Positions 36,755 through 62,137 of a DNA stretch of 64,000 nucleotides are shown in pieces. Origin of the DNA: Naegleria gruberi. Taxonomy: Eukaryota. The position numbers were made by a program, and so were the translations under genes. The stretch is from assembly GCA_000004985.1 (NCBI GenBank), contig GG738924.1; one strand, 5' to 3'. The notes beneath the pieces were generated by a model. It did no database searches. It saw nothing but the letters and a program-made list of their open reading frames with translations, and was not told where the DNA came from. Each line of letters opens with the position of its first letter. Within the stretch, counting starts at the first letter, position 1.

Positions 36755-39700
36755 TTATTCTTTATTTTCTCGCAAAGTCCAAATTTTCTTGGATTTACTG
36801 AATCTTGCAATCTTTTGTAAAAGTTCTTTAAAGTAAATGACATCATCTCCTGTAATATAACTAAAATGCTTTCTTACTTCATCAGTTGTGGCTTTTCCAC
36901 GTTTTTGGAAAAAGGAAACAATGTTATCCACCATTTTGTTTGAACTTTTGTAAACTGGTTTGAGTTCATCAGCCAAATCATTTACATTATTTACAGATCT
37001 AGGTTGATCGCTCATAATATCTTGTTTCTTTCTAATGTTTGCCAAAAGTACAGACGATGCTAATCCACCTTTTGGATTGGTACCACTACTACTTCCCAAA
37101 GCAGATACCCTGAGCCCTCCTAATCCATTTTGTCCTGTGAAAGTTGGTACAGATAAAGGCATGCTTTTTCTTAATTCTCCTGATTTTTTTAATTCCTTAA
37201 CAGCAATTTCAGCTATTTGTTTTGCTTGTTTTTCCAAAATTGATGTTTCAGAACTGGTAGTATTCACAACAGAGTCATGATTGAAAATACTTTTAACAGA
37301 CTTTTCGTCAAATAAGCATTGCAAAATATAAGTCTCATCCTTTTTTGAGTCATCTTCTGAGCCCTTGAATTTTTCTACACGATATTCCACATCTTTCTTC
37401 TTCTTCTTAATTGTTGGCATGTCTTGCCTTAAAATTTCACTATTCGAGAACAAATTACCAGTCTCTGTATTCTCTTCATCATCGTCATAAGGAATAGATT
37501 TGTTGCCATTCTTTCTTCTCACAGAGTCATATTCTTTACCAAGAGTAAATAACTCATAAAGATCATTGGACTTGAAAAATCTCTTTTGTCTAGGATCCTT
37601 GAGAACCTTATTCGAAAGAAATTGTTTGAAAATTTGTCTATGATACATCTTCTCTTCAATAGTACCACTTGTCATCAATCTGTAAACAGTAACTTGTTTA
37701 GTTTGACCCAATCTCCATGCTCTTTCGAGAGCTTGAAGATCTGTGGATGGATTCCAGTCAGGATCGAATAAAATAATTCTATTTGCACCAATTAAATTCA
37801 CACCCAATCCTCCTACCTTTGTTGTTAGTAAAAACACAAAGATTTTGTCATCACTATTGAATTGATTAATCAGTACGCTTCTCTCCTTTACAGGAGTGTC
37901 GCCATCCATTCTAGAATAGGTATAGTCTCGTTCTTGTAAAAATGGTTCAAATACATCTAACATTTTCTTACTTTGAGAAAAGAGTAATACTCTATGATTT
38001 TGTTCCTTCCAAAGACTCAATAGCTTTTCTACAACCATCATTTTACCTGACTTTTCTACTGCACCAAAATCATCAGGTTTCTTCTCAGTACATATCAAAT
38101 CAGGATGATTACAAACTTTTCTGAGATTAGTAATGGCTTTGAAAAGTAAATGTTCTCCATCAAGGGTTCCAGTAACTTCTCTACTCTTCAAATATTCATC
38201 ATATATCTTAACTTGTTTGTCTGTCAATTTACAAAAAATTACATTTTCCTTCTTTTCAGGTAATTGATGCTTTACATCTTTCTTCATTCTTCTTAAAAGA
38301 TATGGCTTGATTAAATCTCTCAGTACACATGAACATTTGTAAGCTGTTTGTACTTGAAATTTGGTTGCATTCGAATAACCACCCTGTGTGATAGGAATTG
38401 AAAATTGGGTGAGAAATACTGGAAGAGTTCCGAGCTTTCCAGGATAACAAAAATCAAATAGTGACCAAAGCTCTTTCAAATTGTTTTGAATTGGTGTACC
38501 TGTCAAAATAATTCTGTGTGGTGTTTCAAATCTTTTACATGCTAATGTTAAGGCAGCATCAGGATTTCTAATCTTGTGACCCTCGTCCAAGATAATATAT
38601 CCCCACTTTTTAGAAGTAAGCACGTCTTGATAAATTCTTAAAGATTCATATGTTGTGATAAGAACACCATTAGGGCAGCTGGAAACCTTCTCTATGAGTG
38701 ACTCGAAATTGGCTTTAGTTCCTTGAGATGTGTGCATAATCACAACTCTAAGCTCTGGCCACCATGTATTAATTTCTTCTTGCCATTGCTTCATTACAGT
38801 TGCAGGTGCAATAATGATAGAAGGTTCGAATAATCCACTAAAGTGAAGTCCAGCAAGGAAAGTGGTAATTTGTACAGTCTTTCCCAATCCCTATAACATG
38901 TTATAAGGATTGAACCAATAAAACTACTTACCATTTCATCTCCCAGTATTCCTCCAACTCCTTGTCTATTCAATTCGCACATCCACTTAAGAGTAGTCTT
39001 TTGATATCCAAATAACTTGTCATAAATCTCTTTAGGGATTGAGTAAGATCCTGCAATTTGTATACTTGGTCCATAATTCACTTTAGTAACTTCCATTTCT
39101 TCGCCTTCATCACTGATTATAAACCTTTTAGTCACTTCTCTTGTTTCATAAAATTCCTCCAATCTCTTTTTATAGTATTCATCATTCGAATCGTCCTCTT
39201 TAAATTCCTTTTTCATTGGTACTTTTTCTTCCTCTTCTTCCTCTTCTTCCTCGTCATCCTCTTGATTTTCCTCATCATCTACATAATCTTCATCATCTTC
39301 GTCCTCCTTCTTGATTTTCTTTGGTTTTTTATTCTTATCTTGTTCTGGAGCCTTTCGTTTACCTGGTTTAGGCAATTGAAAATATCATTGGCTTCATTAG
39401 AAGGCATATTATCAAACGGAGTAATGATACCTGTTCTAATTAATCTTTCTCTTTCCGATTCATTATTATCATTATCAATTACATTTAATGATTCTCTAAT
39501 TTCTCTTCTATCTTCCAATTCTTCGATCATTTCGTCTTTCTTATCCAAGAGAGTTGCAATTTTCTTCTTCAAACTCTTTATTTTCTTTTCATCACTACTC
39601 GAAAGTGATGATCGTTTATTCAACTCTTTTAATTCCTTTTCATACTTTTCGATTTTTGCATTTAATTTATCAATTCTGCTGTGTTCCTTTTTTTCTAATA

Positions 39701-39929: not shown

Positions 39930-40138
39930 TTTTTTTCTTGGTTTTGGCGTACTTGAACATTTTTATTTTTGGGTTACAAAATACACTTCGAATTTTCGCT
40001 GGAACTCAAAGAAAATTTGCAGTAATCGGTGGTTTCACACTTTAAAAAAAAACGAGTTCTCATTCCAACAAGTAACACCCACGCAGTTGTTGTAGTTTGG
40101 AAGAGGAACTTTGAGATTTTTGCAAAAAAAAACAAAAG

Positions 40139-40174
40139 TGGAGTCATAGGGAATCGAACCCTAGACCTTCTGCA

Positions 40175-40205
<31 letters not shown>

Positions 40206-40211
40206 AACCCC
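40139..40211 (-). tRNA. tRNA-Ala(UGC): tRNA-Ala (anticodon UGC), 73 nt, no encoded CCA, Pol III T-tract (TTTT) immediately 3'
   Basis: Reverse complement GGGGTTATAGCTCAGTTGGTAGAGCGTCTGCTTTGCATGCAGAAGGTCTAGGGTTCGATTCCCTATGACTCCA. 7-bp acceptor stem with G3:U70, D-stem GCTC/GAGC, anticodon loop TTTGCAT, T-loop TTCGATT, discriminator A. Confidence 0.92.
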
Positions 40212-45261: not shown

Positions 45262-48200
45262 ATGAAAAAGATATCAACCTTTTTAAAGAGGAAGGAAAGT
45301 GAACATAGATCAAAGCATGCCAGCAATAGCAGCTCTGGGAGTTCTCCAATCTCTCCGAATCATCAAGGCTTTGTGATGGTTGAACATGAAGACGCCATTC
45401 TAATTTCTAAAAACAGCAGCACAACAAGTTCAACAGCTGTGGAATGGAATGAAAAGCTTGAAGAGGATTTCAAGCAATACTTGGACAAAACCTTCAAGAA
45501 TCAAACTGAAACAATAGAAAAGTTGATGGCCCTTCCACCAAAGAAAAAGATGGAAATTCTCAAATTGAAGCAATCTCAGATCAGTTCTCAGAACAATATC
45601 TTACTTCACTTGGAAACAACAATGAATAACATCAAACATCCGCTCTCCACCTTGACACTACATACGCAACTGAAGGAATTGAGAGTTGTCTTGTCAAACT
45701 ATGCCGAAGCAGAAGAAGCATTCATCAATAGAGGTGGTGTTGATTTCACCATGAAATCTCTTTCCAATAATCTCGGTAATCTGAATGGAGCTGCAGACGA
45801 GAATAACAAACTCTTGTTTGCTGAAATTACCATCTCTATTATTATGATCTTGACTCAAATTTGCAAAAACAATGAAGGATTGGAAAAGTTTTTAGAATAT
45901 CCAAATAGTATTGAAGAAATCTCCAAGGCTCTCTTACTGGAACATGAAGATAAGGGTCAGAGGAACTCGATATATTTCCTATTGTCATCATTGTGTTTTT
46001 GTAGGGATGGTACCTACGTTCCACAAGTTTATGAATCTGTTAAGAATTTGTCAAAAATTAGAGGTGAAGAACAATTCTTAACTGTTGTGCAGCATTTGAG
46101 AGAGGCCAACAGTTTAAAGAGCAGATACATCATTCTGGCCTTTATCAATATTTTGATGAGGCAAGCTCCTGTTCAATTCAGAAGAGAGCTAAAGCAACGA
46201 TTTATCAGCGCAGGTGTTTATACTGAGGTTAAAAAACTGGAAAAGATTAAAGTGGAAAATAAGGATACAGAGGATGCCCTCAAGCTAAGCAACCAAATAG
46301 AAATTTTCAACAAGATTATTTCTGGAGATTTAGAAGAAGATATTTTTGATGATTTGAGAGAAATTGTCGAAGAATTAGAAAATTCTAATGTTCCTCTAGC
46401 TGAGGGAATTAAGGCAGTTTCTGAAAAGATGTTGGAGAAATGTAATCAAACTTCGTAAGTTTTAAACAGTTTCAACATCATTAATTATTTATTCAACAAC
46501 AGATCAAGTTTGGAATGGGTCAATGATATCAAAATAATTTTGGAGGGAAGTGAATCTGTAAACTTGTTAAAAGATAGAAATCTCTCACTTCAAAAACAAG
46601 TGGATACCATTACAAAAGATAATGCACAATTAAAAGATCAAATGGAAAAGCTAAAAGTCAGAATTGAAGCTTTGGAGAAGGCACCACCAACAGTTATTGT
46701 GAAAAAGGTTGCAGTTGTAAGACAAGTTGGAGAATTGAAATCGTCTGGTTCCGGTAGTAATCTTGCAGGTTTAGTGGAATCCAATTCACCGACAACATCA
46801 CCTCCTAATATTTTTCCAGATGATACAGTTCCCTCTTGTAACAGCTCTGTTCCACCACCTCCTCAAGCTAGCTCTGTAGTGCCTCCACCTCCAGGAATGG
46901 GAGGTGTTGTTCCTCCACCACCAATTGGTTCAAGCTCAGTTCCTTTGCCTCCCATGACCATCAGTAGCTCTGTTCCTCCTCCACCTGTGGGGTTCAATAG
47001 TTCTGTTCCACCTTCGTCATCTATTCCTTTACCACCAGTAATGGGAACTGTTCCACCAAATTCTGCCATTCCTTTGCCACCAGGAATGAATAGCTCTGTT
47101 CCAATGCCTCCAGGTATTCCTGTACCACCAGGAATAGAAATGCCAGTGGTAGGAAGTACTGTTCCTCCTCCTCCAGGTTTTGGTGGCGTTCCTCCTTCTG
47201 GGTCTGTTGTTCCTCCACCTCCAGTTGGAATGACTAGCTCAGTACCATTACCTCCAGGAATGGGAGTATTGTTCCTCCACCGCCTTTCTCAAATGTACCA
47301 ATGCCTCCTGGTTTTGGAGGTGTTCCACCTCCTCCTGGAATGAATGGTACTGTTCCAGTTCCTCCACTAGGAGTGGGAATGCCACCCCCACCAATGTTTG
47401 GATTTGTACAAACACCACCTGTTATTGCAAGTGCTCCAAAACTTCCAGACATACCTAAGAAGAAGGCTTCTGTGCCCACTAAGGACGTAAGACTCAACAA
47501 ACTAGATAATAACAAACTTCAAAAGTCTGTTTGGATGAAGAAGAACATTCATGCCAAGTTATTCGATATTGATATTCCAGAAAAAGAATTAGAAGATATG
47601 TTCGCTCAAATTTCTAAATCCCCTAGTGTAGGTTTAACTCCAGAAAAGTCAGAAAAACCAAAGGATACAACAATAAGTTTATTGGAAGGACCTAGATTGC
47701 AAAACGTTTCCATCTTTATGAAATATCTCAAGATGCCTTCAACTCAGTTGGTTGAAAAGATAATGACCATCTCTGATGATTTTAATGAGGAATCAATTGG
47801 AAAATTGTTGAATCAAGTTCCTAATGAAGATGAAATTCAAAGACAAAATGATTTTGATGGAGATGAAGCCACATTGAATGAAGCCGATAAGTTTATCAGA
47901 GCCATGATGAAGGTTCCGAGACTTGCTTCCAGATTGAAATGTTGGAATTTCAAGTTGAAATATGTTGAAACAAAGGCTTGTATCAACCCAGACTTGGAAA
48001 CCATCATTTCAACATGTGCTAGTTTGGTAGAATCTGAAAAACTTCAAGAATTGTTTGCTGTCATTTTGGCTTTCAGTAATTACCTTAGCAGGACTGGTAT
48101 CCATGGATTCAAATTGAACTCTCTCCAAAAATTAAAAGAAACAAAAGGTAATGCTAAGAACATTACGCTCCTTGATATGATTGTCAAGCATATTACAAGT

Positions 48201-49103
48201 GCAAAACCAGATATTCTCAAAGTTAAAGAAGATTTGAACATGTTGGAAAGGGCTGCCAGAGTTGAAATGCAAACATTAGCAGACAAGATTGACAGTATGG
48301 AAAAGTCTATTGCTCTTCTGAAAACAGAGATTCAATACTATAGTAAAAATCCACAGCCAAACGATAGATTCTTGGAAGTTTTTGGATCCTTCCTGAATGA
48401 ATGTGAGGATGAAATGAAACTTATTAAGGAAAAGCAACAAAATATGGATAATCAAATTTCAGGGGTTGCTGAATTCTTGGGTGAAGACCCAAACACTGTA
48501 AAGAAGGAACCAAAGGAAATGTTTTTAATGTTAAATTCATTCATTACTGACTTGTACAAATCAGTAGATAATTTGAAAAAGGAAGAAGAAAAGAGAAAGA
48601 AGGAAGAAAGCAAGCTTGCTAAGGAGAAAGACAATCGTCCATCATCCCCTGTAGTTACAGTTGGTGGATTGAAGGCATTTAATTCATTCAGAACACCATC
48701 TAAAGTTCCTCTCATTGCTGAAAATGCAGATGTTTCTGTAACACCAAGCAGTCCTGTAACTCCAATTATTATTTCCTTACCAGATAGTGAACCAAGTGTG
48801 GAAATCACTTCTCCAAGTACACCAATTCAAGAGAAGCAAAATGAGCCAACTATCGAATTAACCAAGAATGGACATGATTTGCTTTCACCTTCGATGCAAA
48901 TGGGTAATTCTTTCGAAGAAAATAGTCCATCAAGACGTAGTGGTCACATTAGAAATCCTTCCATTCTCATGTCTCTTGAAAAGTCCCTATATGAAGGTTC
49001 TGCCTTATTGTCCCCATCTACAAAGACAAGAAAGAGAGGTGGAGGAATGATGACAGGTTTAGATATGAATGAATTGAGTGCTGCATTAAATAAAAAAAAG
49101 TAA
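45262..49103 (+). CDS. Diaphanous-related formin (GBD/FH3 - coiled coil - FH1 - FH2), at least 2 exons (45262..46454, 46503..49103), with an apparent 1-nt frameshift inside FH1 near 47265
   Basis: Armadillo-like GBD/FH3 in exon 1. A 48-nt intron 46455..46502 (GTAAGT...CAACAACAG) lies at the TCG|GTAAGT junction. Exon 2 has a coiled coil, then about 15 tandem (S)SVPPPPGM proline repeats (FH1, 46850..47420). The FH2 (ORF 47301..49103) is then in the next frame. Ends in TAA. Confidence 0.8.
46850..47420 (+). repeat. Coding tandem repeat (formin FH1 polyproline units)
   Basis: About 15 imperfect 27-36-nt units encoding (S)SVPPPP(G)(M/I/F). The short reverse-strand ORFs here (46863.., 47021.., 47234..) are artifacts. 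Confidence 0.7.
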
Positions 49104-50550: not shown

Positions 50551-52683
50551 ATGACTCACAAGAATAACTCTACCACCAACAATACCACAACGTCTTCATC
50601 CATTGACCAAAATGCTACCACTTTTCAATTTCAATTTGTCTTTGACAAGGTCATGCTCAACCAAAGAACATTGAAATTATTCAAAGAATTTCTAATGAAG
50701 AGTTTACATTCCCCAGAAGCTATCCTCTTCTATGAGAAAGTTCTCGAATTTAAATCATTCGAAGGACAAGCTCTGACTGAACATCAGACGAAACTTGCTT
50801 AGAATATTGTGGAGAATGTTATTTTTGTTGGCTCCGCGCATGAAATTAACATTGGAAAAAGAGAGAGAAATCAGGTACTTGAGAGGGTGAAGAGATTATT
50901 AGGTAATAACCCACAAAGAAGTGAAGTTGAGTTGCAATATTTTTCGAATAGTAAGCAAACGCTCAATAAGAAAGAAACCGAAAGTGATGAACAATCAGAA
51001 ACTTCAACAAATAAGCAAAAGAGCTTTTCTTCGATGAATGAGACTTCTACCTTCATAATGGTCGATCCAATTAACATTTTTGATGAAGCATTAGTGACAG
51101 TTAAGAGACAACTCAAAGAAGACGTGTTTCCACTTTTTTTGAGAAGTGACAGATTTCTGACATTTTGTAAGAAGGCATCGAGAGAAACTCTGGGAGAGAT
51201 TGGTTATGAGAGAAGACAGTGTCGTCAATCTGGCAACGTTTCTATTGAAGATTTTTGGAAATTTTACAGAGCTGATTGTGAATCTCTAAATGTCAATGGT
51301 CAAGATGTCAAATTTTTAAGCTCTTTATCAATAGATAGTTCTGATTGGACTCTATTAGAGCAAGAATACTTTAAAAAGAGTTGTTTTGCAACATTTGTTT
51401 CATCTGAAACTCATTGCATGATTAGACCAGAAACTTCCGAATATAGAAATCCAAATTCACAACATATTTACAAATGTACAGGTGTCATTAATCACTCAAC
51501 TGAGAAAGTATTGAAAGCTCTGACAGATTCTCACTTTATGGCCACTTATGATAATAATTTAGCTGTTTGTGAATGCATTGATTTTGTAAATTCTCAAATT
51601 CAAAGCAATTCTCTTCCTGAATCATTATTCGAATTGGACGAAACTGTTCAATTCTCCTCCTCTATCATTCTACAAAATTATCCTTTCAACTGGCCACTTT
51701 CTGGAAGAGATTTCCTCACCAGTCAAACAGATGTCTATGAAAAATCCACTCAACGTTATTTCATTCTCATCAAATCTGTCAACCATCCACTTGCCAAACC
51801 AAAAGAAGGAAGTGTCAGATCTTATCTTGTCGGTGGTTGGATTATTCAACCAATTTCTGATGAATTCTCACGATATACTTTGGTCAATTATATGGATGTG
51901 AATATGAGTGAAAAATTAGTTCAGCAATTTCAACTGAGGAGAGGAAAGAAATTATTCCATTCGTTGAATAAGATATTGAAAGAGATGGACAGGAGTTCAA
52001 TGAATGAGGTGAATGATTCGTGTGGTTTATTGGAAACTTTGGACGAATTTTTGGATTTATACGAAATTAACATTGATGACCAATATAGGAAAGTGAAGAA
52101 ACTAAACAAGATGGAAATGAAGGAACTTCTCACTCCAAGAAAAACTCACCTCGCAAGCACTTCTACCTCAAATCTCGACCACCTTTCGAATAAGATTATT
52201 CGATTGACCTACATTTCCAAATGTAAGAAAAATTTCAATTCTACAGAGCTTGACAAGATTGCAACCACTGCAACTCGATTCAATTCCAGTATCAACGTAA
52301 CTGGTCTCCTTCTCTATTGTAAAGAAGGAATTTTCTATCAAGTATTAGAAGGTGAAAAAGAATTAGTTTCAAATCTATTCGAAAAGATTAAGAAAGATTC
52401 GAGACATTTCGATGTGAAATGTGTCAAAATGGAAACAGATTTATGTGATCGTGATAGACAATTCAAGGGATGGGCCATGAACACAGTTAACTTGGAAACG
52501 TCAGATCATTTCTTTGCTGATTTTATGAAAGAATTATTAGTGACAGTTTCAAAGATGGAGCTCAATAACATGACAGAAGATCAAGCTGTTGGGTTTATAT
52601 TCAAGACATCGAGGCAGATGTTTGAGAAGAGTAGGGAGAGCGGATTTGTTTCGAGATTAGGTTCTTGTTTTTGTATGAAATAA
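50551..52683 (+). CDS. RGS - START - BLUF multidomain signalling protein, interrupted by an in-frame TAG at 50800-50802
   Basis: RGS domain: FDKVMLNQRTLKLFKEFLMKSLHSPEAILFYEKVLEFKS ... [TAG] NIVENVIFVGSAHEINIG ... FDEALVTVKRQLKEDVFPLFLRSDRFLTF. START-like region: YFILIKSVNHPLAKPKEGSVRSYLVGGWIIQPISDEFSRYTLVNYMDVN. BLUF: RLTYISK...INVTGLLLYCKEGIFYQVLEGE...DSRHFDV...RQFKGWAMN. Ends in TAA. Confidence 0.7.
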
Positions 52684-53065: not shown

Positions 53066-56000
53066 ATGAGCAGCGTTGAATATCAGCACGGCAATGAAGT
53101 GCTTTTCATAAAGAAGGGAAGTAGTGGCGAGTCAACCAACAACAATAATAACGCGATGACCACAGAAAGTAATGATCATAAGGCACAGGAATTGGCTCAT
53201 CACGGCGATTCGAAGGATGAACATGTTGATAGTCAACATCATCACCCGAAAGGACCGTTTACATTAACGGCAGATGAATTGTCAGAGATGCATCAGAATA
53301 AGGATTTGAAAGGGTTGCAAAAGATGGGTGGAATGTCTGGTTTGATGAGAGATTTGAAAACTGATGCAAAGAGGGGGATTGCCTGGAAGTCGAATTATCA
53401 AAGTTATGATGAGAGGACGAATCTGTATGGTCTTAATGTGTATCCTGAACCGCCGGCTAAAGGTCTCTTCAAAATATTCTTTGAGGCTCTATCAGACGAA
53501 ACTCACATTATTTTAATGATATTCGCCTTCATTTCGATGGTGTTGGGATTGGCATTTCCTGAATCTGAAGAGGAAAGACCAATTGGTTGGATTGATTCGT
53601 TTGCAATTTATATAGCTGTAGCTATTGTTTGTGTGGTTACAACCGCCAACGACTATTCGAAAGAGAAAAAGTTTAAAAACTTGTCAAGAGAATCCAAAAA
53701 GGTAATGGTTAAGGTTATTAGAGATGGGGAAAATTTTAGCGTTCTCACTGATGATATCAGAGTTGGAGATATTGTTGAAATTGAACAAGGAGATGGTATT
53801 CCAGCTGATGGGCTCTGTATTGAATCAAACCATTTGAAAACAGACGAATCTGTCATGACAGGAGAACCAGATTTGATTAAGAAGAATACAACAGAATTAA
53901 TTTTCTTATTGAGTGGTTGTACAGTTGCTGAAGGTTCTGGAAAGATGCTTGTTACAGGTGTTGGTGTTGGAAGTGAATGGGGAAGAACCTTGCAAAGTTT
54001 GAAAGAAGCCAATGAAGAACAAAGAGAAACTCCTCTCGAAGCCAAATTAGATAAGCTCGCCATCAATATTGGTAAAGTTGGTACTGCATTTGCGATTGGT
54101 ACTGTTACCATTTTGATTTTGGCCTTTTGGATTAAGAAATTGATGTACACTTCAACTTGGGTTGAGGCCTCATCAACATTTGAAGAAACTTGGCAAGAAA
54201 AGAATGTAGTTGATGTGGTCAAGTACTTTATTATTGCTTTGACTATTGTCGTCGTTGCTGTCCCTGAAGGTTTACCACTTGCTGTCACAATTGCTCTTGC
54301 TTACTCTGTTCGTAAAATGATGAAAGATCAGAATTTAGTTAGACACTTGGCAGCTTGTGAGACTATGGGTGGTGCTAACAATATTTGTTCTGACAAGACT
54401 GGTACACTTACTTTGAATCAGATGAGAGTTACCCAAGCTTATTTTGGAGATCGATTCTTTGGTGAGCAATTGAGCTCAATACTGTTGACATTGAAATCAC
54501 CACTGTTGCAAGTAATCATTGATGGTATTGTTGCCAATTCAAAGGCAAACTTGGTCAAGGGTGATGACAATAATAAGAATAAGGAGTATGCCACTCAAGG
54601 AAGTAAGACTGAAGCTGCTCTTTTACTTTTACTTGTCAAACATTTGAATCAGACCATTGACAGTTACAAAGATAGAAGAAATGAATTGCTAAGTGAAGAA
54701 AGAGGCTCTCACCTCCAACTTCCATTCAATTCCAACTTGAAGCGTATGAGTACCATCGTTACAAACTCTGAGGGAGAAACCAGATATCGTCTCTTCACAA
54801 AGGGTGCTTCTGAAATTGTCCTCAAATTGTGCTCCTATCACATGGCTAGTGATGGTTCATTGAGAAAGATGGATTCTGAAAAGGAAGCTGAAATGATGAA
54901 ATGTATTGAAGATATGGCTAATCAAGGTTTGAGAACAATTTGCTTGGCCTACAGAGATGTCAATCCAGAAGTTGAATTCTCATCACGAGCTGATGAAGAA
55001 AATTATTTAGAAAATATTGATCCAGTTACCTTGGAACAAGATTTAGTATGTATTGGTATTGTAGGCATTAAGGATCCATTGAGACCTGAAGTACCAGCAG
55101 CTATTGAACAATGTAAGAAATCAGGTATCACTGTCCGTATGATTACAGGTGACAATATCTTGACAGCCAAGTATATTGCCAGAGAGTGTGGTATCTTGTC
55201 GAAGGATGGTATTGCTATTGAAGGCCCAACATTCAGAAAGATGACTCCAGAGCAAATTGATGAGATTCTTCCAAAATTACAAGTTATGGCTCGTTCCTCA
55301 CCAACTGACAAGTTTATTCTTGTAAAGCATTTGAGAAAGAAGGGTAACGTTGTTGCTGTGACTGGAGATGGTACCAATGATGCTCCAGCTCTTAAAGAAG
55401 CCGATGTTGGATTGAGTATGGGTCTTAGTGGAACCCAGGTTGCTAAGGAAGCTTCTGATATCATTATTTTGGACGATAACTTCTCATCCATTGTTAAGAG
55501 TGTGTTGTGGGGTCGTTCCATTTACGAGAATATCAGAAAGTTTTTAGTTTTCCAATTGACAGTCAACGTGGTTGCTTTGATTTTAACAATTGTTTCTGCT
55601 GTTTCGTCTGCTTTCCAACATAATTCTTCCTATAGGCCACCTTTGAGTCCTGTACAAATGTTGTGGATCAACTTGATCATGGACACGTTTGCAGCTCTCG
55701 CCCTTGCCACAGAACCTCCAATTCCAGAACTTTTAGACAGAAAACCTCACGGAAGAAAGGATTCCCTCATTACAATGAGAATGTGGACCTTCATTGCTGC
55801 TGAATCAATCTTCCAGCTCACTGTCATGTTCACACTCTTCTATGGAGCAACCTCATTCAGAGGACTTTCATTCAGCTTAGCCAGAAATGATGCTGAAATG
55901 AGAACCATCATTTTTAATGCTTTCGTATTTTGTCAAGTTTTCAATCAATTCAACGCAAGAAAGATTAATTTTGAGTATGATATTTTCAGAGGAGTTTTCA

Positions 56001-56317
56001 AGAGTTTCTGGTTTATTGGTATCACCATAATGATTTTCATTTTACAAATTGCCATCATTAACTTTGCCTATTATGATCCAATTCTTATTGGTTTGGGTAA
56101 GAATGATGGTTTGACTGCCTCCAATTTTACCCAGACCATTCCATTGAATTGGTATCAATGGGCCATAACTATTTCCATTGGTTTCATCAGTATTCCATAT
56201 GGCTTTTTAGTGAGATTCGTCAGCAGAATGTTTTTGAAATTATTGAGCTTGAAGAAGAATAACAGACAAATTACCAGTGATGGCTACGAGGAAACCTATT
56301 CCAAAGCAAGTGAATAA
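53066..56317 (+). CDS. Plasma-membrane-type Ca2+-transporting P-type ATPase (PMCA family), 1083 aa, single exon
   Basis: P-type motifs TGES-equivalent region, phosphorylation site CSDKTGTLT, KGAPE-like KGASE, DPLRPEV, TGDN, GDGTNDAPAL. Ten predicted TM segments. Ends in TAA. Confidence 0.92.
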   Translation: MSSVEYQHGNEVLFIKKGSSGESTNNNNNAMTTESNDHKAQELAHHGDSKDEHVDSQHHHPKGPFTLTADELSEMHQNKDLKGLQKMGGMSGLMRDLKTDAKRGIAWKSNYQSYDERTNLYGLNVYPEPPAKGLFKIFFEALSDETHIILMIFAFISMVLGLAFPESEEERPIGWIDSFAIYIAVAIVCVVTTANDYSKEKKFKNLSRESKKVMVKVIRDGENFSVLTDDIRVGDIVEIEQGDGIPADGLCIESNHLKTDESVMTGEPDLIKKNTTELIFLLSGCTVAEGSGKMLVTGVGVGSEWGRTLQSLKEANEEQRETPLEAKLDKLAINIGKVGTAFAIGTVTILILAFWIKKLMYTSTWVEASSTFEETWQEKNVVDVVKYFIIALTIVVVAVPEGLPLAVTIALAYSVRKMMKDQNLVRHLAACETMGGANNICSDKTGTLTLNQMRVTQAYFGDRFFGEQLSSILLTLKSPLLQVIIDGIVANSKANLVKGDDNNKNKEYATQGSKTEAALLLLLVKHLNQTIDSYKDRRNELLSEERGSHLQLPFNSNLKRMSTIVTNSEGETRYRLFTKGASEIVLKLCSYHMASDGSLRKMDSEKEAEMMKCIEDMANQGLRTICLAYRDVNPEVEFSSRADEENYLENIDPVTLEQDLVCIGIVGIKDPLRPEVPAAIEQCKKSGITVRMITGDNILTAKYIARECGILSKDGIAIEGPTFRKMTPEQIDEILPKLQVMARSSPTDKFILVKHLRKKGNVVAVTGDGTNDAPALKEADVGLSMGLSGTQVAKEASDIIILDDNFSSIVKSVLWGRSIYENIRKFLVFQLTVNVVALILTIVSAVSSAFQHNSSYRPPLSPVQMLWINLIMDTFAALALATEPPIPELLDRKPHGRKDSLITMRMWTFIAAESIFQLTVMFTLFYGATSFRGLSFSLARNDAEMRTIIFNAFVFCQVFNQFNARKINFEYDIFRGVFKSFWFIGITIMIFILQIAIINFAYYDPILIGLGKNDGLTASNFTQTIPLNWYQWAITISIGFISIPYGFLVRFVSRMFLKLLSLKKNNRQITSDGYEETYSKASE

Positions 56318-61072: not shown

Positions 61073-62137
61073 ATGACAAGACACATTGTTTGTTGTCTCT
61101 TAATTTTGACATTGTCATCATTTATTCTGTGTGGTAAACCTTCCCTACCAACAAGTGTCACTGATTCTCTTCAACCATGTTCACATTCTTCCAAAAATGG
61201 TGATTTCTGCACTTTACCACTTTTATCAGCAAATCCAACACAAATTCCAGTTGGTTTGGGTGAAATTTACTGTAAAATTCAAAAATTAGAAAATGAATAT
61301 TCCTCCGAAAAGAAATTAATTGAAAAATATTTATATAAAAATCCAGTGCCAGTTGTCAAGGGACCTTTGACAGATGGCAGTGGATTGGGATTATATGTGG
61401 TAGATCATCATCATTTGATTGTTTCCATGTATTCAGCTAGTTTTGATAAGACTGATTTTCCAACTTTTCATTCTGCCAAAAATAGATATGTCATTGCTCA
61501 AGTTGTCAATGACGTTTCTAATAATTTTACATCTGCTAATGAAGCTTTTTGGAATAGTATGTTTGGTAAGGGATATGCCTATCCAAAGGATGAATATGGT
61601 AAAAATTTGACAACTGGCATGTTTATTCAACAATTGCCACGTGACATTTTGTCAATGAGAAATGATCCTTACAGAGCTCTCTCATATTATGACAGATCTT
61701 ATGGTGGATATGGAAAAACTGACACTTCCATCTATTTTGTTGATTTTGTTTGGGGAAATTTCTTGAGAGAATTTGGTGGACCTGACATGTCAGCTCATTT
61801 ACAACCATTTATTGGAATTCAAGTTAAAAATGCACCTGTCACCAAGTCATCAGTCACTCCAAGTGGTGCCAAGACCAATTCCTATACCATGAAGGAAGAA
61901 TTCAAAGTTCAAAAGTCATTAATTGGAGCTGCAGTTGCAATCTCAAAATCTTCAGCTGCCAAAGGATTGCCAGGTTACATGCAAGGAACAGTTGATCCTC
62001 CATATTGTTTGGCAAGTTATCAAGTTGTTTCTTCATCAACAACTAGTGGTGGTAGTAGTACTGGAGATGCAAGTGAGAAGAAGAAGAAGATTATTTTATT
62101 GTCTGATAATTTGGAAGATGAGGAATATGATGAATAA
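61073..62137 (+). CDS. Hypothetical secreted protein with an acidic C-terminal tail
   Basis: N-terminal MTRHIVCCLLILTLSSFILCG is signal-peptide-like. A VVDHHHLIV motif is faintly ParB/sulfiredoxin-like (unverified). Ends ...LEDEEYDE then TAA. Confidence 0.45.
   Translation: MTRHIVCCLLILTLSSFILCGKPSLPTSVTDSLQPCSHSSKNGDFCTLPLLSANPTQIPVGLGEIYCKIQKLENEYSSEKKLIEKYLYKNPVPVVKGPLTDGSGLGLYVVDHHHLIVSMYSASFDKTDFPTFHSAKNRYVIAQVVNDVSNNFTSANEAFWNSMFGKGYAYPKDEYGKNLTTGMFIQQLPRDILSMRNDPYRALSYYDRSYGGYGKTDTSIYFVDFVWGNFLREFGGPDMSAHLQPFIGIQVKNAPVTKSSVTPSGAKTNSYTMKEEFKVQKSLIGAAVAISKSSAAKGLPGYMQGTVDPPYCLASYQVVSSSTTSGGSSTGDASEKKKKIILLSDNLEDEEYDE

What the first reader, a model, noticed from the sequence alone, without database searches (positions are those of the whole stretch)
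50551..52683. Novel RGS-START-BLUF domain architecture: a candidate light/lipid-gated regulator of G-protein signalling
A complete RGS domain (N- and C-terminal RGS motifs both present) is fused to a START-like lipid-binding module and a C-terminal BLUF (flavin blue-light sensor) domain. The BLUF diagnostic blocks are present: Y in RLTYIS, FYQVLEGE, D.RH, and W/M in FKGWAM. I know of no described protein with this RGS plus BLUF combination. BLUF is rare in eukaryotes, and in the examples I know of (euglenid and heterolobosean photoactivated cyclases) it is fused to adenylyl-cyclase domains, not RGS or START. When aligned to PixD/AppA, the photoactive Gln falls on a Thr (TATRFNSS versus SSQRNN). 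The domain may therefore be photochemically atypical or a non-photoactive BLUF fold.
Basis: partly seen in the sequence, partly recalled or inferred. Interest (0 to 1): 0.8.

Follow-up and report, generated by a model that had tools for sequence, protein, structure and literature searches.

The report
Blue-light sensor fused to G-protein regulator
This Naegleria gruberi gene joins a G-protein "off-switch" (RGS), a lipid-binding START domain and a fully canonical flavin blue-light sensor (BLUF) in one protein, a layout conserved across related amoebae and not characterised experimentally in anything I could search, although this copy carries one premature stop codon.

Summary
Window 50551..52683 (+) is one 710-codon reading frame with a single in-frame TAG (50800-50802). 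It encodes RGS (Pfam E about 1e-11), a START-fold domain and BLUF (E 6e-25). START is shown by homologues, a profile search of PDB and predicted structure, not by the window's own Pfam score.

The window is Naegleria gruberi NEG-M. The gene has no protein model on this scaffold. A second NEG-M copy (XP_002668848.1, a truncated chimeric model) has Gln where the window has TAG, so this is a CAG/TAG difference.

The architecture is not a one-off. Willaertia magna, Acrasis kona (several paralogues mislabelled "photoactivated adenylate cyclase") and metagenomic sequences carry colinear RGS-START-BLUF or START-BLUF proteins. RGS-START proteins without BLUF are also common.

The photoactive Gln is the Q of FYQVLEGE (Q597) and is present, as are Tyr554, Asn578, Trp641 and Met643. 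These are conserved in 18 of 19 family BLUF domains.

Best reading: a blue-light-regulated Gα GTPase-activating and lipid-binding protein, convergent with fungal RGS-LOV receptors. Function is inferred, not shown. I rate it a new variant of a known kind, interest about 0.6.

The parts
50551..52683 (+). Whole gene: 710 codons plus TAA, no intron detected, one in-frame TAG. Encodes RGS-START-BLUF.
   Evidence: Same start Met as the annotated second copy P0006. Colinear with P0001 and W. magna P0005.
50800..50802 (+). In-frame TAG at codon 84, inside RGS helix alpha5. The second N. gruberi copy has Gln (CAG) here.
   Evidence: P0006 reads 'TKLAQNIVERF'. The flanks align to RGS17 and CG5036 'A..IYEDYI'.
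50638..51183 (+). RGS domain (aa 30-211), split by a 51-residue low-complexity, disordered insertion (aa 118-168, nt 50902-51054). Glu56 and Asn100 are the equivalents of RGS4 E87 and N128.
51244..51993 (+). START-fold (helix-grip) lipid-binding domain, aa 232-481. Lys408 and Arg423 are present in every aligned family member that covers the position.
52018..52059 (+). Conserved helix 'SCGLLETLDEFL' after the START C-terminal helix (family consensus S-x-G-L-x-x-T-L). Candidate signal-relay element.
   Evidence: Alignment A5. Predicted helix 409-419 of the 626-aa model.
52060..52194 (+). Variable, disordered START-BLUF linker (aa 504-548, net charge +3).
   Evidence: pLDDT below 50. Charge computed.
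52198..52479 (+). BLUF domain core (aa 550-643) with Tyr554, Asn578, Gln597, Asp616/Arg618/His619, Trp641 and Met643.
   Evidence: Pfam PF04940 87.6 bits. OaPAC and bPAC E about 1e-23. Foldseek rmsd 1.7 A over 120 columns. Conservation.
52510..52638 (+). Two C-terminal helices packing behind or after the BLUF sheet (PixD/PAC alpha3-alpha4-like).
   Evidence: Predicted helices 570-583 and 592-612. Sequence alignment to OaPAC runs to chain residue 141. Foldseek match to TePixD and Slr1694 over about 144 columns.
52660..52680 (+). C-terminal Cys-rich tail 'GSCFCMK'. Possible lipidation site (speculative).
   Evidence: Sequence. Related tails in family members: CTIV, ACVF, TCIM.

Best explanation
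Shown: the locus is one Naegleria gruberi gene for a three-domain protein. The domains are an N-terminal R4-like RGS box, a central START helix-grip lipid-binding domain, and a C-terminal PAC-type BLUF flavin domain followed by two helices. It belongs to a conserved heterolobosean family that also includes Willaertia, Acrasis and metagenomic sequences. In this assembly the gene is interrupted at codon 84 by TAG, where the second NEG-M copy has CAG (Gln), and it has no protein model on this scaffold.

Inferred mechanism: BLUF binds FAD or FMN. Blue light rearranges the Tyr554-Gln597-flavin hydrogen-bond network (the classic ~10-nm red-shifted state). The change then passes through the beta-sheet and C-terminal helices, and through the conserved S-x-G-L-x-x-T-L helix, to the START domain. 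This alters its lipid or membrane engagement, or un-masks the RGS box. As a result the GTPase-accelerating activity on membrane-bound G-alpha subunits becomes light-dependent.

The conserved core is START-BLUF, and RGS is one of several N-terminal outputs. I therefore think light acts first on START and only indirectly on RGS. In logic this is a convergent counterpart of fungal RGS-LOV (BcLOV4) receptors. From this particular copy, full-length protein would need the CAG allele, or the TAG would have to be an error.
Against: There is no transcript, protein, flavin-binding, GAP or lipid-binding data for any family member. This copy has a premature TAG and also Val instead of the family-conserved aromatic at position 90 of the RGS, so it may be decaying. 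The RGS4 N88 equivalent is Ala and the R167 equivalent is Leu in the window protein. The window's own START region fails the Pfam threshold. BLUF is C-terminal here, unlike the well-studied BLUF-effector proteins, so the relay route is conjecture. N. lovaniensis keeps only a stand-alone 173-aa BLUF of this clade, so the fusion is dispensable in some Naegleria.
Confidence: 0.55

Rival explanations
1. The window copy is a null or decaying allele. The TAG is a real C-to-T nonsense change in one NEG-M haplotype, so this locus yields only an 83-residue peptide. At best it yields an N-terminally truncated START-BLUF protein re-initiated at Met162 or Met170. Any full-length protein comes from the other copy. 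This concerns only this copy and is compatible with the family-level explanation.
For: The TAG is in the assembly. The second copy differs at about 25 other residues in aa 1-168, so TAG versus CAG is one of many real haplotype differences rather than an isolated base-call. The window copy also has Val where 9 of 10 relatives and the second copy have Phe, Tyr or His. No protein model exists for this locus. Natural START-BLUF proteins lacking RGS exist.
Against: Only one stop occurs in 710 codons, and the 626 codons downstream are fully open, so any inactivation is very recent. No reads were available to confirm the base.
Confidence: 0.45
2. The TAG is a sequencing or assembly error and the gene is intact in both copies.
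For: It is a single-base difference from CAG. Everything else in the frame is intact.
Against: The two copies are truly divergent in this segment. A random error creating a stop exactly here is a priori rare. This cannot be tested with these tools.
Confidence: 0.25
3. The RGS box is a G-alpha-binding or scaffolding module without GAP activity, as in SNX14/25, axin or GRK2. On this reading the protein is a light-gated lipid sensor or lipid-transfer protein in which START-BLUF is the functional unit.
Against: The Asn128 equivalent is invariant and the Glu87 equivalent is nearly so. The best structural neighbours are true GAPs, RGS4 and RGS3.
Confidence: 0.25
4. The BLUF is a photochemically dead fold.
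For: None after re-alignment. One paralogue (A. kona P0020) shows that such dead versions do arise.
Against: Tyr554, Gln597, Asn578, Trp641, Met643 and D-x-R-H are all present and conserved. Identity to OaPAC and bPAC is 39% in the structural alignment.
Confidence: 0.06
5. The three domains belong to separate genes, or the fusion is an assembly artefact.
For: None found.
Against: The same colinear order is found in independent genomes (Willaertia magna, Acrasis kona) and in metagenome contigs, with no stop or frame change between domains.
Confidence: 0.03

Closest known systems
Fungal RGS-LOV photoreceptors (BcLOV4 class; Glantz et al. 2018, PMC6099885)
   Same: A flavin-based blue-light sensor sits in one chain with an RGS box and a lipid- or membrane-interacting element. 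The proposed logic is also the same: light controls membrane engagement and hence access to G-alpha.
   Different: The sensor here is BLUF (Tyr-Gln-flavin hydrogen-bond switch), not LOV (Cys adduct). The membrane element is a START lipid-binding domain, not a polybasic amphipathic helix plus DUF. The order is RGS-START-BLUF. The lineage is Heterolobosea, not Dikarya. The resemblance is convergent, not homologous, and no LOV/PAS domain was detected.
Photoactivated adenylyl cyclases (bPAC, OaPAC, Euglena and Naegleria PACs)
   Same: The BLUF domain is of this type. They are the best sequence matches in PDB (E about 1e-23), superpose at 1.7 A rmsd, and the similarity extends into the post-BLUF helix.
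   Different: No cyclase domain is present in the window protein or in any of the 20 aligned family members. BLUF is C-terminal rather than N-terminal. The 'photoactivated adenylate cyclase' names on the Acrasis members are annotation carry-over.
Short BLUF proteins (PixD/Slr1694, TePixD, BlsA, BlrB)
   Different: In the window protein the module is tethered in cis to START and RGS.
START-domain proteins STARD4/5/6/10, StAR, MLN64; and the RhoGAP-START proteins DLC1-3
   Different: Sequence identity is only 14-20%. The ligand is unknown. The GAP partner here is an RGS box acting on heterotrimeric G-alpha rather than a RhoGAP, and a photosensor is attached.
Heterolobosean RGS-START proteins without BLUF (for example N. 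fowleri FDP41_005315)
   Same: They have the same RGS and START domains in the same order, and they are the nearest non-BLUF relatives in the profile search.
   Different: They lack the C-terminal linker helix and BLUF module.

Membership tests
BLUF (PF04940) | Profile match above the curated threshold | tested here: met
   87.6 bits against a cut-off of 25, E 6e-25, profile positions 2-91 of 92.
BLUF (PF04940) | Photocycle residues: Tyr (beta1), Gln (beta3), Met and Trp (beta5), and the flavin-binding Asn | tested here: met
   Y554, Q597, W641, M643 and N578 align without gaps to OaPAC Y6 and Q48 and to bPAC. Tyr and Gln are kept in 18 of 19 family BLUF domains; Asn, Trp and Met in all 19.
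BLUF (PF04940) | Ferredoxin-like beta-alpha-beta-beta-alpha-beta-beta fold | tested here: met
BLUF (PF04940) | Non-covalent flavin binding and a reversible ~10-nm red shift | not testable with these tools
   Needs recombinant protein and spectroscopy.
RGS (PF00615) | Profile match above the curated threshold | tested here: met
   44.3-45.3 bits against a cut-off of 23.9. The C-terminal helices match RGS, GRK2 and axin chains.
RGS (PF00615) | Nine-helix RGS-box fold | tested here: met
RGS (PF00615) | G-alpha-contact and GAP residues (RGS4 E87, N88, N128, D163, R167) | tested here: inconclusive
   E56, N100 and D191 are conserved; N is kept in 11 of 11 and E in 10 of 11. The N88 equivalent is Ala and the R167 equivalent is Leu in the window protein. 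The RGS4 numbering is from my own knowledge.
RGS (PF00615) | GTPase-accelerating activity on a G-alpha | not testable with these tools
   Biochemical assay needed.
START (PF01852) | Profile match above the curated threshold | tested here: not met
   The window's own middle region gives no START hit at E<=10. The homologue P0001's region scores 25.2 bits (cut-off 22). Five of 20 aligned members hit START, best E 2.3e-10. A two-sequence profile hits only START chains in PDB, best E 0.0045.
START (PF01852) | Helix-grip fold with a long C-terminal helix over a curved beta-sheet | tested here: met
START (PF01852) | Binding of a lipid or sterol in the cavity | not testable with these tools
   The ligand is unknown.
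Photoactivated adenylyl cyclase (PAC) | Class III cyclase catalytic domain fused to BLUF | tested here: not met
   No Guanylate_cyc hit in the window protein or in any of the 20 family members. True PACs in the same hit list do show it (P0027 and P0030).
RGS-LOV (BcLOV4 class) | LOV/PAS flavin domain with an adduct-forming Cys | tested here: not met
   No PAS or LOV family was detected. The resemblance is functional analogy only.

The most novel reading that the evidence does not exclude
RGS-START-BLUF proteins are single-chain photoreceptors that couple flavin photochemistry directly to heterotrimeric G-protein signalling through a light-gated lipid-binding START domain. This would be the heterolobosean route by which blue light steers behaviour or development, for example light-induced fruiting in Acrasis. 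It would also be a natural, compact optogenetic switch for G-alpha signalling or for lipid or membrane recruitment.
Probability: 0.3. Interest if true: 0.8.

Novelty: new variant of a known kind. Interest (0 to 1): 0.6.

Why it matters
BLUF outputs characterised so far, as I know them, are cyclases, phosphodiesterases, transcription anti-repressors or separate partner proteins. A BLUF wired to an RGS box through a lipid-binding START domain would be a new sensor-effector logic for this photoreceptor class. It would also be an independent invention of what fungi do with RGS-LOV.

It gives a concrete molecular candidate for blue-light responses in Heterolobosea. Acrasis development is light-induced, and Naegleria has a very large G-alpha/RGS/cyclase repertoire. 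It also offers a possible template for optogenetic control of G-protein signalling or of lipid or membrane targeting.

On the practical side, three annotation problems come out of this. The gene is missing from the N. gruberi NEG-M protein set on this scaffold. The second copy is a chimeric model fused to the neighbouring calcium pump. The Acrasis orthologues are mis-named as adenylate cyclases.

Tried and rejected
1. An intron that removes the TAG. A 63-nt in-frame GT..AG segment (50740-50802) exists. However, its 5' site (GTTCTC) is poor. It would delete residues that align to conserved RGS helices in P0001, P0005 and RGS17. The JGI model of the second copy reads straight through this segment.

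2. A reassigned TAG codon. Among ORFs of at least 300 codons in the window, the terminating stops are TAA 19, TGA 4 and TAG 1, so TAG is used as a stop here. No other in-frame TAG occurs in the gene. The TAG-A context is not a classic read-through context (my knowledge).

3. The 710-aa ORF at 36755-38887 (-) has exactly the same length as this gene. It is a SNF2-type helicase, so the match in length is a coincidence.

4. A polybasic linker like that of BcLOV4. The START-BLUF linker has a net charge of only +3, so I dropped the idea.

5. Word-indexed protein searches were insensitive here. They gave 1 and 3 hits. The exhaustive HMMER search was what revealed the family.

The intact W. magna orthologue was modelled instead.

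7. The DNA of the second NEG-M copy could not be fetched because it is not on record. The afdb50 fold library was unavailable.

8. The prokaryotic promoter/terminator scan, NCBIfam, tRNA and tandem-repeat scans added nothing to the question.

9. The Acrasis paper's supplements held as text do not name the aggregation-induced BLUF genes. Yasukawa 2013 and Kaushik 2019 are not held.

Full report
**What is at the coordinates.** From ATG 50551 to TAA 52681-52683 the + strand carries one reading frame of 710 codons with a single internal stop, TAG at 50800-50802 (codon 84). The other five frames of the same 2.1 kb contain 36-69 stops each. The frame is therefore coding, and the TAG is the only lesion. 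The window is AT-rich eukaryotic DNA. Three long ORFs in it are identical to Naegleria gruberi NEG-M proteins: the calcium ATPase XP_002669620.1 immediately downstream at 53066-56317, RPB2, and one other. All lie on a 196.6-kb scaffold. Neighbouring genes are ordinary eukaryotic genes, including a formin, a RING protein, an F-box/LRR protein and a ParB-like nuclease. They give no functional context.

**Domains.** With the TAG bridged, Pfam gives BLUF PF04940 at 87.6 bits (E 6e-25, aa 550-643) and RGS PF00615 at 44-45 bits (E about 1e-11). START is not found by Pfam on the window's own middle region. Four other lines agree that this region is a START domain:
- The same region of the homologue P0001 scores 25.2 bits against START (cut-off 22), and 5 of 20 aligned family members hit START, best E 2.3e-10.
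- A two-sequence profile of the region hits only START chains in PDB: STARD6 at E 0.0045, then STARD10, the carotenoid-binding START protein and STARD5.
- An AlphaFold model of the 626 residues after the TAG has mean pLDDT 74, with the middle domain at 75-94. It matches STARD5 by Foldseek at E 1.7e-10, TM 0.77 over 234 columns, followed by STARD10, STARD6, STARD4 and CERT.

The ungapped HMMER alignments to OaPAC and bPAC (E about 1e-23) place the window's RLTYIS Tyr on OaPAC Tyr6. That numbering is confirmed by the PDB title 'variant Y6W'. They place the Gln of FYQVLEGE on the Gln of FFQILEG, which is residue 48 of OaPAC by direct counting in that alignment. This strand Gln is the photoactive one (PixD Q50, AppA Q63; my knowledge, consistent with the counts). 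The window protein has Tyr554, Asn578, Gln597, Asp616/Arg618/His619, Trp641 and Met643. Across 19 family BLUF domains the Tyr and Gln are each kept in 18, and Asn, Trp, Met and D-x-R-H in all 19. The single exception (Acrasis kona P0020) has lost Tyr and Gln together. That pattern argues for selection on a working photocycle.

**The TAG.** The flanks of the TAG align residue for residue with helix α5 of RGS17 and CG5036 and with all family members, so it interrupts coding sequence. A possible 63-nt in-frame GT..AG intron would delete conserved RGS residues, and I reject it.

The exhaustive profile search returned a second N. gruberi protein, XP_002668848.1 / D2W4A1 (NAEGRDRAFT_76231), on a 40.9-kb contig. 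It has these properties:
- It starts at the same Met as the window gene.
- It is about 85% identical over aa 1-168 and 100% identical over aa 169-318 (92% over the whole 321-residue alignment).
- After aa 318 it jumps to the last 59 residues of the neighbouring calcium pump, so it is a chimeric gene model.
- At codon 84 it has Gln.

The difference is therefore CAG versus TAG, one of about 25 amino-acid differences between the copies. At position 90 the window copy has Val, where the second copy and 9 of 10 relatives have an aromatic residue. I think a real nonsense allele in one haplotype is the more likely explanation, and a base-call error the less likely one. I could not fetch reads or the second scaffold. 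No protein corresponding to the window locus exists in the searched collections, so the gene is unannotated on this scaffold.

**The family.** An exhaustive HMMER search of 1.84 billion representatives found 19 proteins at E<=1e-30. The named ones are as follows:
- Willaertia magna KAL9658754.1, 644 aa, full RGS-START-BLUF, 41% identical to the window protein.
- W. magna KAL9658275.1, START-BLUF only.
- At least seven Acrasis kona proteins annotated 'photoactivated adenylate cyclase subunit alpha', 'pacA', 'pacB' or 'sensor of blue-light using FAD'.
- Naegleria lovaniensis XP_044552938.1.
- The remainder, which come from metagenomes or Logan assemblies.

The first homologue found, on an ENA metagenome contig, has a GTAAGT...TAG intron in its RGS region and is therefore eukaryotic. 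In a 20-sequence alignment, BLUF is found in 19 members, RGS in 10 and START in 5. A protein kinase is found in one member, which has START but no BLUF. A cyclase is found in none, so the Acrasis names are carry-over from BLUF similarity. N. lovaniensis has only a stand-alone 173-aa BLUF gene of this clade, with an unrelated hydrolase gene 250 nt upstream. Further down the hit list are many RGS-START proteins without BLUF, including N. fowleri FDP41_005315, and an ankyrin-START protein. The picture is a modular one: a START-BLUF core with variable N-termini, beside a larger RGS-START family.

**How it probably works (inferred).**
- BLUF binds flavin, and blue light switches the Tyr-Gln-flavin hydrogen-bond network.
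- The change is relayed through the β-sheet, the C-terminal helices and perhaps the conserved S-x-G-L-x-x-T-L helix (aa 490-501) to the START domain.
- The lipid or membrane engagement of START then controls where or whether the RGS box meets GTP-bound Gα.

The invariant Asn100 (RGS4 N128 equivalent) and Glu56 (E87 equivalent), together with the R4-like fold, favour real GAP activity. The Ala at the N88 equivalent and the Leu at the R167 equivalent are points against it. The precedent is fungal RGS-LOV, where light drives membrane binding and membrane localisation is a prerequisite for GAP action (PMC6099885). Biological context comes from two papers. N. fowleri encodes 13 Gα subunits and more than 100 RGS proteins (PMC9283941). 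Blue light induces Acrasis development, and two BLUF genes rise during aggregation (PMC11589745). None of this is experimental evidence for the present protein.

**Novelty.** No held paper combines BLUF with a START domain. Papers that mention both BLUF and RGS do so separately, with RGS-LOV and BLUF as distinct topics. The Acrasis genome paper notes BLUF enrichment but not this architecture. The N. fowleri G-protein paper mentions neither START nor BLUF.

Two caveats rest on memory only, because the papers are not held. Kaushik et al. 2019 (Appl Sci 9:3924) list 'regulators of G-protein signaling' among BLUF-associated effectors. Yasukawa et al. 2013 showed that an N. fowleri BLUF-like sequence confers light control on a cyclase chimera. 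If that sequence is the orthologue of the N. lovaniensis stand-alone BLUF, it would support photoactivity of this clade.

The sequences themselves are public and carry automated RGS and BLUF domain tags. I therefore class this as a new variant of a known kind: a BLUF photoreceptor with an uncharacterised RGS/START output, convergent with RGS-LOV. It is not categorically new.

**Verdict.** Interest is about 0.6.

Noticed in passing
window 50551-52683; second copy = XP_002668848.1 (P0006): The gene has no protein model on this scaffold. The only N. gruberi model of it (NAEGRDRAFT_76231, on a 40.9-kb contig) is a chimera: RGS plus the first third of START, spliced to the last 59 residues of the neighbouring calcium ATPase. 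The two copies are about 85% identical over aa 1-168, then 100% identical over aa 169-318. This abrupt mosaic is unexplained.
   Followed up: partly
Acrasis kona KAL0486363.1, KAL0480502.1, KAL0484174.1, KAL0482910.1, KAL0476994.1 (P0011, P0012, P0016, P0157, P0022): These are annotated 'photoactivated adenylate cyclase subunit alpha', 'pacA' or 'pacB'. The four that were aligned and scanned (P0011, P0012, P0016, P0022) have no cyclase domain and are RGS-START-BLUF or START-BLUF proteins. P0157 is a 90%-cluster mate of P0019 and was not scanned itself.
   Followed up: yes
A. kona KAL0490722.1 (P0020): A paralogue in which the BLUF Tyr is Phe and the photoactive Gln is Ser. It looks like a naturally 'blind' member of the family.
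   Followed up: partly
L002 6001-6522 (Naegleria lovaniensis PYSW02000008.1): N. lovaniensis has a stand-alone 173-aa BLUF gene of the same clade with no RGS or START upstream. A Hydrolase_4 gene ends 250 nt before it. This may correspond to the 'BLUF-containing protein' reported for N. fowleri in 2013 (recollection, not verified).
   Followed up: partly
hits P0032, P0038, P0039, P0043, P0047, P0070, P0161: RGS-START two-domain proteins without BLUF are numerous, including N. fowleri FDP41_005315. I found no paper describing an RGS-START fusion. Ankyrin-START (P0031) and kinase-START (P0021) relatives also exist.
   Followed up: partly
window 52660-52680 and the C-termini of family members: There are Cys-containing C-terminal tails: window GSCFCMK, P0015 CTIV (CaaX-like), P0017 and P0019 ACVF, P0022 TCIM. 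These may be lipidation or membrane-anchor sites. They are not present in all members.
   Followed up: no
family BLUF domains: Pfam TEX47 (animal testis-expressed protein 47) co-hits 7 of 20 of these BLUF domains at E down to 1e-5. This suggests the TEX47 model is BLUF-related.
   Followed up: no
window 61073-62137 (+): An ORF with a strong ParB-like nuclease domain (PF08857, E 4e-34) in a eukaryotic genome.
   Followed up: no
window 45262-49103 (+): A formin (GBD, coiled coil, FH2) is split over three consecutive ORFs, presumably by introns or frame changes.
   Followed up: no
window 40138-40211 (-): tRNA-Ala (TGC), the only tRNA gene in the window.
   Followed up: no
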